Assembly (NCBI GenBank): GCA_043228905.1
Contig: JBHGNT010000009.1
Coordinates: 6,572,001 to 6,636,000 of the forward strand
Reading direction: 5' to 3'
Origin: Azolla caroliniana
Taxonomy: Eukaryota > Plantae > Polypodiophyta
DNA: 64,000 nucleotides
Shown here: positions 44,101-47,100 of the stretch, piece by piece
How positions within the stretch are numbered: position 1 is the first letter of the stretch
Layout: each line of letters begins with the position of its first letter
Program-made: the position numbers and the translations under genes
Notes under the pieces: model-generated
Databases searched by the model: none
Told to the model about the DNA's origin: nothing
The model's input: only the letters and a program-made list of their open reading frames with translations

Positions 44101-47100
44101 AACAATGCTATCCCTTTTGAAGTATCCTCAGTTTCATTAACTATTGATGAAATGCAAAAGGTGGAACCCGCATCTGGGACAGCGATGGAAATTTGTCTTC
44201 ACTCAAGTATATCATGCAGTCACGAAACATCAAATGTAACATCTTGCCCTACAGAGGTTACTGAGCTTGGTAGTAACAGTTCTGCTACTGCAGGAGTATC
44301 ATCAAGTTCTACAGAACCAACTGAGTTCTGTCATCATGTTACTATCCCATGTGAAGTATCCTCAGTTTCAACAGATGTAGATGAAACAGAACAATCTTTC
44401 CCTATATCTGGGGGAACTATATGGAGCATGGGATTGGATGAATTAAAGGCCTTTTTTCAGATTGGAGTAGAAAGCCAGGCTCAAACTTCTGAGAAACATG
44501 ATGAGAACTGTGGAATATTAAGTTCCCTTTCTATTCAAGGTGATTCTACAACAGGATTGTCCATGGCTTCTGCACTTTCCATGCCGAACAATAGCCATCC
44601 TTGGAGTGGAAATGTGTCAGAGGAGGCAAAACGTGTAGAGATGATTGTGCTTAGTGATGATGAAGATTTTCCTGATGGGCATTCTATCTTTACCAACTCT
44701 TACCTAAAACTTGTAGTTGGTGAGGATTCTAATGCAATAGACTTGAAATCGGGACATGTATTACCATTGGAAACTGAGAATCAAAGCACTGGAATTTCTT
44801 GGAACAGTAATGCTCCAATGGGTATACAATTGGATGGAACAGGGCAAATGAATGAGTCTAAAATCATTAACTCAACAGAGCAGGCTGATTTTACCGTGAA
44901 ACTCAAGCATTCATCTTTGCAAGGAGATTTCAAAAACTTTCAGACAGACTTTGGAGCTAATACTTCAATTCGTACAGAATTGAATAATGGATGGTTGCAA
45001 CACAAGGCTCCCCAGAATTCTGATCAGGGGAACTCACAACAGGGTAATGCAAGGCATCGCTTGACTCAGGGAATTTCTCAAGTGGGTAATACAAGGCATG
45101 CCTTAACTCAGAAAAATTCACAAATGGGGAATACACTAATAACTCAACAAAATTCCCAGGTCGCTGATGCACTTTTAACTCAGCAAAATTCAGAAGGGGT
45201 TAAGACAATCTTCAATCAGCAAAATTTACAAATGGGTAACAAAGGGCATATTTTAACTCAGAAAAAATCACAAGTGGCTGATACAGGTCATCTATTAACT
45301 CAAAGAAATTCACAAGTGGGTAATGCACTCTTAAGTAAGCGAAATTCACAAATGGGTAATGCAGGAAGTCTCTTAACTCAGCAAAACTCGCAAGGGGATA
45401 GTACACTCTTAAGTCAGCATAACTTGCAAGTTGGTGATACAGTGCATCTCTTAACTCCACAAAATTCACAGGTAGGTAATACACTCTTAACTGAACAAAA
45501 TTCACAGGTGGGTAATGCAGGGGATCTCTTAACTCAGAAAAAATCGGAAGTGGGTGATATAAGGCATATCTTAACTCAGAGGGATTTAGAAGTGGGTAAC
45601 ATAATTCAGCAAAATTTACAAGTGGGTAGTACAGGGCATCTCTTAGCTCGACAAAATTCTCATGTGGGTAACGCACTCTTGAATTGGCAAAATTCACAAA
45701 TGGGTAATACTGGACATCTCTTAACACAGGGAAATCCACAAGTAAGTAATGCAGGGAATCTTTTAACTCGGCATAATTCACAAGTTGGTAATGCAGGGCA
45801 TCTCTTTATTCAGAAAAACTCACAGCTGAATAATACAGGGCAACTATTGACTCAGAAAAGCTCACAACTGAGTAATACAGGTCAACTCTTGACTCAGGAA
45901 ACTTTGCCATTGAGTAATACAGGGCATCTCTTAACTCAGACAAGTCTACATGCCACTGATGCAAGTCATCTCTTGACTCAGCAGAATTCACAAGTGGGTA
46001 ATGCAGGGCAGTTTTTGACCAAGAAAAATCCACAATTACCCATTACATTAACTCAGCAAAATTCACTAGTGGGTGATACAGGGCATGTCTTAACTCAGAC
46101 AAGTTCACATGGTGGTGATGCAAGCCATCTCTTAACTCAGCAGAATTTACAAGTGGGCAATACAGGGCAATCCTTAACTAAGAAAAAGTCACAACTGGGT
46201 AATACATTAACTCAGCGAACTTCACAAATGGATGATACAGGGCATCTCTTAACTCAGACAAGCTCACGTGCCTGTGATACAAGCCATCTCTTAACTCAGA
46301 CAAGCTCACGTGCTGGCGATACAAGCCATCTCTTAACTCAGACAAGCTCACGTGCTGGTGATACAAACCATCTCTTAACTCAGACATGTTCACGTGCCAA
46401 CGATACAAGCCATCTTTTAACTCAGCAGAATTCACAAGTGGGGAATGCAGGGCAATTCTTAACCAAGCAAAGTCCACAACTGGGTATTACATTAACACAG
46501 AAAACTTCACAAGTGGGTGATACAGGGCATGTCTTAACTCAGACAAGTTCACATGCTGGTGATACTAGCCATATTTTAACTCATCAGAATTCACAAGCAG
46601 GCAATACAGGGCAATTCTTAAATAAGAAAAAGTTACAACTGGGTATTACATCAACGCAGCAAACTTCACAAGTGGGTGATACAGTGCATCTCTTAAGTAA
46701 GATAAGCTCACATGCCAGTGAAACAAGCCATCTCTTAACTGAATCAAATTCACAACTGGGCAATACAGGGCAATTCTTAACTAAGCAAAGGTCACAATTG
46801 GGTATCACATTAACTCAGCAAACTTCACAAGTGGATGATACAGGGCATCTCTTAACTCAGACAAGCTCACATGTTGGTGATACAAGCCATCTCTTCACTC
46901 AGACAAGTTCACATGTCGGTGATACAAACCATCTCTTAACTCAGGTTGAACATGACTTGGGTTTGGCTGCTGTTATATCTCCGTCAGCAGTTACAGACAA
47001 TGCACAACAGACTAACTGCTTATTGGGTCAGCCCCAAGGTGCTTATTCAGTTGAGCTTCTAAATGTTGGTAGAATCATGGTGGGAAAGGCTTGGTGCAAC

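What the first reader, a model, noticed from the sequence alone, without database searches (positions are those of the whole stretch)
45028..46944. Histone demethylase with a 639-aa array of 48 Q/N/T/S/H-rich repeats (possible amyloid, beta-solenoid or condensate domain)
Seen: a single 3.5-kb exon between zf-C5HC2 and FYRN encodes 48 tandem units such as [14 protein letters not shown] and [14 protein letters not shown]. Every length variant (10, 11, 12 or 14 aa) keeps the frame and there are no stops despite high unit divergence, which suggests selection at the protein level. Established: angiosperm PKDM7 proteins have a variable linker here, but I know of no regular array in it. Inference: the polar, low-Pro, low-charge composition and recurring (S/L)QVGN cores loosely resemble RHIM-type amyloid cores and beta-solenoid repeats. 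The array could give an H3K4 demethylase a polymerising or environment-sensing module; the periodic His could respond to pH or metal.
Basis: partly seen in the sequence, partly recalled or inferred. Interest (0 to 1): 0.8.

Follow-up and report, generated by a model that had tools for sequence, protein, structure and literature searches.

The report
Fern demethylase with 48-repeat linker
One of two copies of a fern histone-demethylase gene carries a real, transcribed, in-frame block of 48 short repeats found in no other protein we searched; it likely acts as a long flexible spacer rather than an amyloid, though it also supplies 55 possible DNA-damage phosphorylation sites.

Summary
Window 45028-46944 encodes 48 units (35x14, 7x12, 5x11, 1x10 aa) inside a 3517-nt exon of an intact 1873-aa fern PKDM7/JMJ16-type H3K4 demethylase. 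RNA contigs from 8 runs cover the array, none skips it, and 5 of 5 indels inside it keep frame. No homologous array was found. Adiantum and angiosperm orthologues lack it, and an expressed sister paralogue has about 709 nt where this copy has 2356. Selection keeps the frame open (0 stops versus 13-17 expected), but the amino acids drift almost neutrally (dN/dS 0.84, 95% 0.65-1.10). Only composition is held: no tyrosine gains. The QVG 'amyloid core' is unconstrained and the RHIM tetrad occurs 0 times. AlphaFold2 gives helix or beta-solenoid depending on input, both at low confidence. Best reading: a lineage-specific tandem expansion tolerated as a soluble tether between the catalytic and targeting modules (0.58). 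Solenoid or amyloid: about 0.12.

The parts
39585..41094 (+). 5' UTR intron (GT-AG)
   Evidence: joint in run X1; ends checked
41148..41393 (+). first coding exon. ATG at 41148; a second in-frame ATG at 41184 matches Adiantum MKFSLKRV and may be the true start
   Evidence: X15 lacks one base at 41150
41483..41551 (+). coding exon 2
   Evidence: RNA joints, gene model
41640..41717 (+). coding exon 3 (start of JmjN)
41802..42305 (+). coding exon 4 (rest of JmjN, basic NLS-like tract)
   Evidence: PF02375 E 9.7e-11; joints
42399..42614 (+). coding exon 5 (JmjC, includes F369)
   Evidence: best PDB hits Os05g0196500 (4igo) E 1.8e-28 and JMJ14 (5ykn) E 3.8e-28
42763..42924 (+). coding exon 6 (JmjC: H372, E374, K390)
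43001..43360 (+). coding exon 7 (JmjC: H460; KDM5 C-terminal helix)
   Evidence: PF02373 E 3e-18, PF21323 E 1e-4
43606..47122 (+). coding exon 8, 3517 nt: zf-C5HC2, linker, array, start of FYRN
43705..43863 (+). zf-C5HC2 zinc finger
   Evidence: PF02928 E 5.6e-13
43945..44386 (+). older two-copy tandem duplication in the same linker (period 240 nt, 67% identity)
   Evidence: self-blastn E 1.5e-14
44647..44670 (+). conserved acidic VLSDDEDF linker motif shared with fern and angiosperm orthologues and with the paralogue
45028..45939 (+). array, older part: units 1-23, QNSQVGN(TGH)LLTQ type, 14/12/10-mers, mean best-partner identity 84%
45940..46944 (+). array, younger part: units 24-48, 159-nt four-unit higher-order repeat with 11-mers and [14 protein letters not shown] units, mean best-partner identity 89% (up to 95%); holds 8 of the 9 TQT motifs (the ninth spans the unit 23/24 junction)
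47239..47342 (+). coding exon 9 (rest of FYRN)
   Evidence: joints; FYRN start PF05964 weak, E 0.006; FYRN/C 69% identical to Adiantum P0001
47419..47616 (+). coding exon 10 (FYRC)
   Evidence: PF05965 E 3.1e-10; joints
48662..48830 (+). last coding exon with stop

Best explanation
The array is a transcribed, in-frame tandem expansion of a 42-bp unit in the linker exon of one copy of a fern PKDM7/JMJ16 demethylase gene pair, and it likely works as a long, soluble, mostly unstructured tether between the catalytic JmjN-JmjC-zinc-finger module and the FYRN/FYRC module that is inferred to dock the enzyme on transcription factors. Shown: the gene model, intact cofactor residues, retention in spliced RNA, frame-keeping indels, a short-linker sister gene, near-neutral amino-acid change and depletion of tyrosine and aromatic gains. 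Inferred: growth by unequal crossing-over or slippage in steps of 42, 78, 159 and 444 nt, youngest at the 3' end. Stops and frameshifts are purged because they would cut off FYRN/FYRC. Sticky aromatic residues are purged to keep 639 extra residues soluble. The copy tolerates this because the sister gene keeps the ordinary architecture. The expected effect is roughly a doubling of the reach between modules (about 10 to 20 nm by random-coil scaling), with no unit-specific function required.
For: dN/dS among units 0.84, bootstrap 0.65-1.10; replacing changes 161 vs 169.9 in stop-free neutral simulations. Array and non-repeat linker diverge equally from run X4 (42/1213 vs 38/1128 nt), and N:S does not differ between them in X2 (10:7 vs 12:10, Fisher P 1.0). 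Catalytic exons diverge less (21/1079 nt in X2). Stops 0 vs 13-17 expected; 5 of 5 indels inside the array in relatives are multiples of 3. Tyr gains 0 vs 7.2 (0 of 1000 simulations), aromatic gains 7 vs 15.5, small-polar gains 61 vs 43. The paralogue has 709 other letters in place of 2356 (X12) and 778 in place of 2547 including the intron (X8). Two Adiantum and two angiosperm orthologues have 196-213 aa where this protein has 803. The same exon carries a second, unrelated duplication, so it tolerates expansions. No confident fold (pLDDT 41.7 and 57.9). FYRN/FYRC are needed for chromatin targeting of Arabidopsis JMJ14 (PMC4659397, abstract).
Against: pN/pS against X2 is 0.42-0.57 in units 1-11 (17 changes only), so some constraint exists. 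Unit number is unchanged through unit 28-31 in relatives 3-5.5% diverged, which is stable for a tandem repeat. The HLLTQ block changes less than neutral (41 vs 54, P 0.015; TQ lost 12 vs 19, P 0.015; uncorrected among about 30 statistics). Charge-hydropathy is borderline, not clearly disordered (FoldIndex 0.02, constants recalled). All three short unit classes lack codons starting at the same position 9 (read), which could reflect structure. The unit tree is a minimum spanning tree, not a true history, and gene conversion can blur dN/dS.
Confidence: 0.58

Rival explanations
1. The array has been co-opted as a multi-site signalling platform. ATM/ATR would phosphorylate its S/T-Q sites after DNA damage and FHA or BRCT proteins would read them, and/or LC8 dynein light chain would bind its TQT motifs and dimerise the enzyme as in ASCIZ. 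This copy would then be a damage- or LC8-tuned H3K4 demethylase.
For: 55 S/T-Q motifs in 639 aa against 6 in the other 1234 aa. Up to 8 per 50 residues; 543 of 590 windows meet the SCD rule of 3 in 50 (PMC3564818, abstract and passages), while 5 of 5 homologues tested never exceed 2. 39 of 48 units carry one. Leu precedes 28 of 55 (an ATM preference I recall; no call). TQ at positions 13-14 is lost 12 times vs 19.1 expected (P 0.015 uncorrected). 9 TQT anchors at 14-residue or longer spacing; human ASCIZ has 11 (PMC5963919, passages; motif description PMC12057147, passages). ATM phosphorylates SQ sites in plants (PMC6900162, passages).
Against: Amplifying one unit that happens to hold SQ and TQ multiplies the motifs without selection, so the shuffle excess (55 vs 22.4 +- 3.8) is not independent evidence. 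SQ at positions 3-4 is lost at the neutral rate (15 vs 14.9). Only 1 of 55 sites has the +2 Glu enriched in verified sites. The local dN/dS of LTQ is 0.84 once its own low silent rate is used (P 0.34). TQT occurs only at junctions of units 23-47 and arose late. The SCD rule is loose (436 yeast and 2193 human proteins).
Confidence: 0.2
2. The array folds as a two-sided beta-solenoid, with one 10-residue strand ([10 protein letters not shown]) and one GNTG arc per unit and two units per coil. It would form a rigid rod of about 24 coils that might stack end to end like curli.
For: AF2 on units 18-25 with a 6-row alignment of other array segments gives regular 10-residue strands with 4-residue turns. 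The model matches SufB/SufD-type solenoids (Z 8.1-9.8, rmsd about 2 A over 110-112 residues) and CsgA (Z 7.9, rmsd 8.8). One face is more hydrophobic (75 of 175 vs 38 of 175 residues) and the other is Q/N/H-rich. The 12-, 11- and 10-mers all lose codons at the turn. Pro is low (6 of 639).
Against: Best pLDDT 57.9, other models 28-49, pTM 0.43; the single-sequence run gives helix plus coil instead. AF2 is known to fold repeats into unrealistic beta-solenoids (PMC11795689, abstract). No Foldseek match at E<=0.001, and the tool notes Z 7-8 is common. Would-be core positions change at or above the neutral rate (67 vs 60.2, summed). Pro depletion vanishes with the measured C>T-biased spectrum (6 vs 8.6; it was 6 vs 14.7 under a symmetric model). 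No beta periodicity in hydropathy (z -4.3 to 0.7). 3 of 5 indels in relatives fall in the predicted strand. Five odd-length 11-mers would flip register. RHIM tetrad 0; QxGxxN 0.
Confidence: 0.12
3. The array is a conditionally folding amphipathic helix or weak coiled coil (14 = two heptads, 11 = hendecad) that would oligomerise or condense the enzyme on stress, possibly through its 35 His residues.
For: Hydrophobic moment at 100-103 degrees exceeds shuffles (z 4.9-5.7). Single-sequence AF2 gives helix over residues 3-120 at pLDDT 60-86. TRF sees a 21-nt sub-period. H10 is kept in 25 of 35 14-mers, with 4 changes vs 9.2. Calculated charge rises from +10 at pH 7 to +35 at pH 5.5.
Against: The z-scores treat copies of one unit as independent. 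9% Gly plus N, S and T disfavour helix, and seven 12-mers break heptad register. Hydrophobic residues are lost at the neutral rate (15 vs 17). Aromatic stickers are selected against. H10's silent rate is also low (local ratio 1.3).
Confidence: 0.07
4. This copy is decaying or truncated in some plants, so the array is often not translated.
For: One extra T in the T6 run at 44451, upstream of the array, in contigs of X1 (depth 8.7) and X15 (5.9). Both other frames stop within 13 codons.
Against: It is absent in 5 of the 7 runs that cover the place (X2, X4, X8, X12, X16), four of them at depth 49-133 with 2.2-2.3 kb contigs. Homopolymer slippage fits. All five cofactor residues are intact and JmjC is 85% identical to Adiantum.
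Confidence: 0.03

Closest known systems
Plant PKDM7/JMJ16-type H3K4 demethylases (Arabidopsis JMJ14/JMJ16, rice Os05g0196500; Adiantum P0001, P0002)
   Same: Domain order JmjN-JmjC-zf-C5HC2-linker-FYRN-FYRC, F/H/E/K/H cofactor residues, LSDDE linker motif; JmjC 79-85% identical to five orthologues; groups with the two ferns at 99/100.
   Different: 1873 aa instead of 1231-1276; 803 aa instead of 196-213 between LSDDE and FYRN, 639 of them a 48-unit array.
Pol V NRPE1 C-terminal domain repeats
   Same: A disordered, copy-variable peptide-repeat region on a plant chromatin enzyme, including a QS-repeat part (PMC7714444, passages). That it evolves by modulation of disordered repeats comes from the title of Trujillo 2016, seen in a reference list only.
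   Different: NRPE1 repeats carry WG/GW AGO hooks with a known partner. This array has one Trp, lies inside the protein, and is limited to one paralogue.
S/T-Q cluster domains and ASCIZ/ATMIN
   Same: Dense S/T-Q motifs in a low-complexity region of a nuclear regulator; 9 TQT anchors vs 11 in human ASCIZ.
   Different: Built by tandem DNA amplification with regular spacing; no acidic +2 residues; phosphorylation and LC8 binding untested; absent from orthologues.
RHIM amyloids and curli CsgA / SufBD beta-solenoids
   Same: Q-V-G tripeptides and Q/N/G/S richness; a low-confidence model has SufBD/CsgA-like geometry.
   Different: No RHIM tetrad, no curli arc motif, no Pfam match, and no conservation of the would-be core.

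Membership tests
PKDM7/JMJ16 (plant KDM5) | JmjN + JmjC + zf-C5HC2 + FYRN + FYRC in this order | tested here: met
   JmjN, JmjC, zf-C5HC2 and FYRC above cut-off. FYRN is below cut-off on the half in exon 8 (E 0.006), but FYRN/C is 69% identical to P0001, which carries PF05964.
PKDM7/JMJ16 (plant KDM5) | Fe(II) ligands H, E, H and 2-oxoglutarate residues F, K | tested here: met
   F369, H372, E374, K390, H460 are identical in 7 of 7 aligned proteins; residue set from PMC9029850, passage
PKDM7/JMJ16 (plant KDM5) | groups with FYR-bearing plant KDM5 rather than the ARID/PHD type | tested here: met
   7-row tree: with Adiantum 99/100; ARID/PHD protein P0006 on a long separate branch. Small sample.
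PKDM7/JMJ16 (plant KDM5) | H3K4me demethylase activity | not testable with these tools
   inferred from family
RHIM amyloid motif | core tetrad (V/I)-Q-(V/I/L/C)-G | tested here: not met
   0 in 639 aa; the 21 xQ(V/L/M)G sites start with S (15), L (5) or P (1); definition from PMC9444067, passage
RHIM amyloid motif | match to the family profile | tested here: not met
   whole array and 3 sub-segments: no RHIM family at E<=1
RHIM amyloid motif | forms amyloid in vitro | not testable with these tools
   needs ThT or EM
beta-solenoid (SufBD/curli-like) | confident parallel-beta coil fold | tested here: inconclusive
   pLDDT 57.9 solenoid with alignment, helix/coil without; AF2 bias
beta-solenoid (SufBD/curli-like) | conserved inward-facing ladder positions | tested here: not met
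   hydrophobic-face positions change 67 times vs 60.2 neutral; other face 48 vs 55.5 (summed)
curli CsgA repeat | Q-x-G-x-x-N arc motif (recalled) or Pfam curlin match | tested here: not met
   0 motifs; no Pfam hit
Q/N-rich prion-like domain | at least 30 Q/N in 80 residues, Tyr-rich (thresholds recalled) | tested here: not met
   maximum 26 in 80; Y 0, F+W 8 of 639. PLAAC and ArchCandy not available.
S/T-Q cluster domain | at least 3 S/T-Q in 50 residues | tested here: met
   up to 8; 543 of 590 windows; rule from PMC3564818
S/T-Q cluster domain | Glu enriched at +2; cluster conserved in orthologues | tested here: not met
   1 of 55 with +2 Glu; 0 of 5 distant homologues have a cluster
S/T-Q cluster domain | ATM/ATR-dependent phosphorylation | not testable with these tools
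   needs phosphoproteomics
multivalent LC8 client (ASCIZ-like) | several TQT anchors in a disordered region | tested here: met
   9 TQT
multivalent LC8 client (ASCIZ-like) | favourable flanks and binding to LC8 | not testable with these tools

The most novel reading that the evidence does not exclude
A DNA tandem repeat has given birth, inside one copy of a duplicated fern H3K4 demethylase, to a new folded domain: a rod-like beta-solenoid of about 24 coils with [10 protein letters not shown] strands and GNTG arcs, which stacks enzymes into polymers or a rigid spacer and whose exposed S/T-Q ladder lets ATM/ATR switch it. It would be a de novo polymer module on a chromatin enzyme, with its array-less sister gene as a built-in control.
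Probability: 0.1. Interest if true: 0.8.

Novelty: new variant of a known kind. Interest (0 to 1): 0.37.

Why it matters
At minimum it shows that an apparently intact chromatin enzyme can absorb 639 repeat-derived residues between its catalytic and targeting modules in one duplicate. It gives a clean natural pair (array vs no array) for asking what lineage-specific repeats in nuclear proteins do. If the S/T-Q or TQT sites are used, it would be a direct link from ATM/ATR or LC8 to a plant H3K4 demethylase that arose by repeat expansion. The evidence here favours a tolerated spacer, so the specialist surprise is moderate.

Tried and rejected
Searches for a homologous array found none. There were 0 hits among 7993 candidates of 646-2058 aa and 0 among 7995 of 30-350 aa. 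Lengths 351-645 and above 2058 were not covered by these two searches. The 33 hits in the 1.84-billion representative library look like unrelated repeat proteins: 7 were read and 14 scanned by Pfam (none a JmjC protein); 19 were not examined. Metagenome contigs: 166 pattern matches, 0 confirmed. PDB sequences: only PRDM9 zinc fingers at E 0.036-0.07, rejected because the array has 2 Cys. No DNA relative elsewhere in the window. Earlier scan findings: none. No whole genome is held, so the paralogue's locus and other copies of the repeat were not seen. The protein Atlas was unavailable. Complex prediction of array copies was not available, so self-association has no verdict. The first alignment of overlapping segments aligned segments to themselves and was not used. 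Proline avoidance looked significant under a symmetric mutation model and was dropped after the measured spectrum removed it. The stronger LTQ signal (35 units) weakened with all 48 units. Alternative splicing as the cause of the 44687-47044 joint was rejected: the ends are CT..CT, 709 other letters lie between, and the flanks differ by 9-15%. Assembly artefact was rejected: units are at most 95% alike and RNA contigs are colinear through unit 28-31. No contig spans the whole array, so copy number in the 3' part is unknown in relatives. Literature: searches azolla+jmjc+demethylase, pkdm7/fyrn/fern (32), histone demethylase+tandem repeat+fern+disordered (66) and jmj16/jmj14/fyrn/linker/phase separation (67) listed no paper describing such an array (listings only). 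The supplement rows of PMC9029850 that I saw give gene ids without lengths. Trujillo 2016 is not held. bioRxiv supplements and FernBase annotations could not be seen and may already contain this gene model.
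Full report
Observation. The stretch 45028-46944 is exactly as described: 639 codons with no stop, in one frame with the zf-C5HC2 finger upstream and the start of FYRN downstream. It splits into 48 units, 35 of 14 aa, 7 of 12, 5 of 11 and 1 of 10, with consensus [14 protein letters not shown]. TRF finds nested periods of 42, 78, 159 and 444 nt. 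Units 1-23 have a best partner at 84% mean identity and units 24-48 at 89%, up to 95%, so the 3' part is younger.

The gene. RNA-type contigs of four runs give 11 GT-AG joints: ten coding introns and one 5' UTR intron. They define an 11-exon, 1873-aa protein with a single terminal stop. The interiors of the two long introns have zero depth in 4 of 4 runs, so these runs behave as RNA. Domains are JmjN, JmjC, zf-C5HC2, FYRN and FYRC, and the five cofactor residues are intact. The closest solved structures are rice Os05g0196500 and Arabidopsis JMJ14. The closest proteins are from Adiantum, and the tree places the gene with them at 99/100. The plant is therefore a fern; the genus was not established. 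If it is an Azolla (a guess, not tested), the Azolla-specific genome duplication (PMC6786969, passages) would be a natural source of the gene pair described below.

The array is in the mRNA and kept in relatives. I laid 8 of the 24 listed runs, under 6 organism labels and 8 study codes. All eight cover the array and no joint skips it. Single contigs run from the linker through unit 28-31 at 3.4-5.5% divergence (X4, X8, X12, X16). Contigs of X1, X8 and X12 run from inside the array across the next intron into FYRN. All 5 distinct indels inside the array are multiples of three (-18, -3, +3, +3, -6). Against this, an extra T at 44451, upstream of the array, appears in low-depth contigs of X1 and X15 and would truncate the protein. 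It is absent in the other 5 of 7 runs covering that place, and I read it as slippage or a minor allele. No contig spans the whole array, so 3' copy number in relatives is unknown.

The array is private to this copy. Four full-length orthologues have 196-213 aa between the LSDDE motif and FYRN (the fifth could not be measured by my pattern); this protein has 803. One search shows a second expressed gene that shares the VLSDDED motif and FYRN at 85-91% identity. It has 709 other letters where this copy has 2356 (X12; 778 vs 2547 with the intron in X8; matching loose ends in X3, X4 and X16). I could not read those letters, so a few ancestral units are not excluded. That paralogue also seems to lack 43952-44487, which here holds a second, older 240-nt duplication. 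No homologous array turned up in any protein or contig search.

What selection acts on. Stops are strongly purged: 0 against 13-17 expected. That is needed simply to keep FYRN/FYRC, which target JMJ14 to chromatin through NAC factors (PMC4659397, abstract). Amino acids are close to neutral among units: dN/dS 0.84 (0.65-1.10), and 161 replacing changes vs 169.9 simulated. Against relatives the array diverges like the plain linker (3.5% vs 3.4% in X4; N:S 10:7 vs 12:10 in X2), faster than catalytic exons (1.9%). pN/pS there is 0.42-0.57 on only 17 changes, so mild constraint is likely. With the measured C>T-biased spectrum, two results survive about 30 tests: no tyrosine gains (0 vs 7.2; 0 of 1000 simulations) and excess small-polar gains (61 vs 43). 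Aromatic gains (7 vs 15.5), TQ loss (12 vs 19) and His10 change (4 vs 9.2) are nominal only. QVG is exactly neutral (43 vs 42.8), and proline depletion disappears. The unit tree is a minimum spanning tree, so these figures are approximate.

Structure. AF2 on the array alone gives helix then coil, mean pLDDT 41.7. With a six-row alignment of array segments, units 18-25 form a beta-solenoid at pLDDT 57.9, pTM 0.43, resembling SufB/SufD (Z 8.1-9.8) and CsgA (Z 7.9). Foldseek finds nothing at E<=0.001. AF2 is reported to produce unrealistic solenoids for repeats (PMC11795689, abstract). For the solenoid: one face is more hydrophobic (75 vs 38 of 175) and the short units lose codons at the turn. 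Against it: no conserved core, no beta periodicity, 3 of 5 indels in relatives fall in the strand, and five units have odd length. The RHIM tetrad (PMC9444067, passage) occurs 0 times, and Q/N density peaks at 26 in 80 with no Tyr.

The array holds 55 S/T-Q motifs against 6 in the rest of the protein and meets the SCD rule (PMC3564818) in 543 of 590 windows; none of five homologues does. Nine TQT motifs recall the 11 LC8 sites of ASCIZ. This is the most testable functional idea. But tandem amplification alone would create such a cluster, SQ is lost neutrally, and the +2 Glu is nearly absent (1 of 55).

Verdict. Shown: a real, spliced-in, frame-conserved, lineage-limited 48-unit array in one of two PKDM7 paralogues, under selection for an open frame and non-aromatic composition. 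Inferred: it arose by stepwise unequal exchange and works as a long soluble tether, roughly doubling the reach between catalytic and targeting modules (random-coil scaling with recalled constants); confidence 0.58. Rivals: phospho or LC8 platform 0.2, beta-solenoid or amyloid 0.12, helix or condensate 0.07, decay 0.03. It is a member of the PKDM7 family and a new variant of the known pattern of lineage-specific peptide repeats in plant chromatin proteins such as the NRPE1 CTD (PMC7714444, passages). It is not an RHIM, curli or prion-like domain by the tests run. Four literature searches listed no description of it. Interest 0.37.

Noticed in passing
window 43945-44386: Second, older tandem duplication (period 240 nt, 67% identity) in the same linker exon, unrelated to the array. 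The paralogue's contigs appear to lack 43952-44487.
   Followed up: partly
window 44451: Extra T in a T6 run in contigs of X1 and X15 would frameshift upstream of the array; absent in five other runs.
   Followed up: partly
window 44634-44687 and 47044-47344 (runs X3, X4, X8, X12, X16): Expressed short-linker paralogue. X8 also has a contig matching only 44634-44667 with different flanks, possibly a third family member.
   Followed up: partly
window 41148-41186: Two in-frame ATGs. X15 lacks a base at 41150, and the second ATG matches the Adiantum MKFSLKRV motif, so 41184 may be the start.
   Followed up: partly
window 46240-46590 and 46825-46944: Summed contig depth spikes and a loose end behind 46944 in X4 and X16 hint at extra copies of the youngest units in relatives, but may be multi-mapping.
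   Followed up: no
window about 11100-23200 (+): SNF2-family gene, RAD54-like by my recall of the motifs; SNF2-rel_dom E 2e-12 at 16240-16596.
   Followed up: no
window about 400-7500: Broken Ty1/copia-type retrotransposon remnants (SH3_retrovirus hit at 2013-2597), with a 104-nt tandem repeat of 6.8 copies at 3442-4158.
   Followed up: no
window about 50300-54200: Broken Ty3/gypsy-type retrotransposon remnants (integrase core hit at 52236-52655) about 1.5 kb past the demethylase stop.
   Followed up: no
window 16618-17168: 280-nt direct duplication (91% matches) inside the SNF2 gene region.
   Followed up: no
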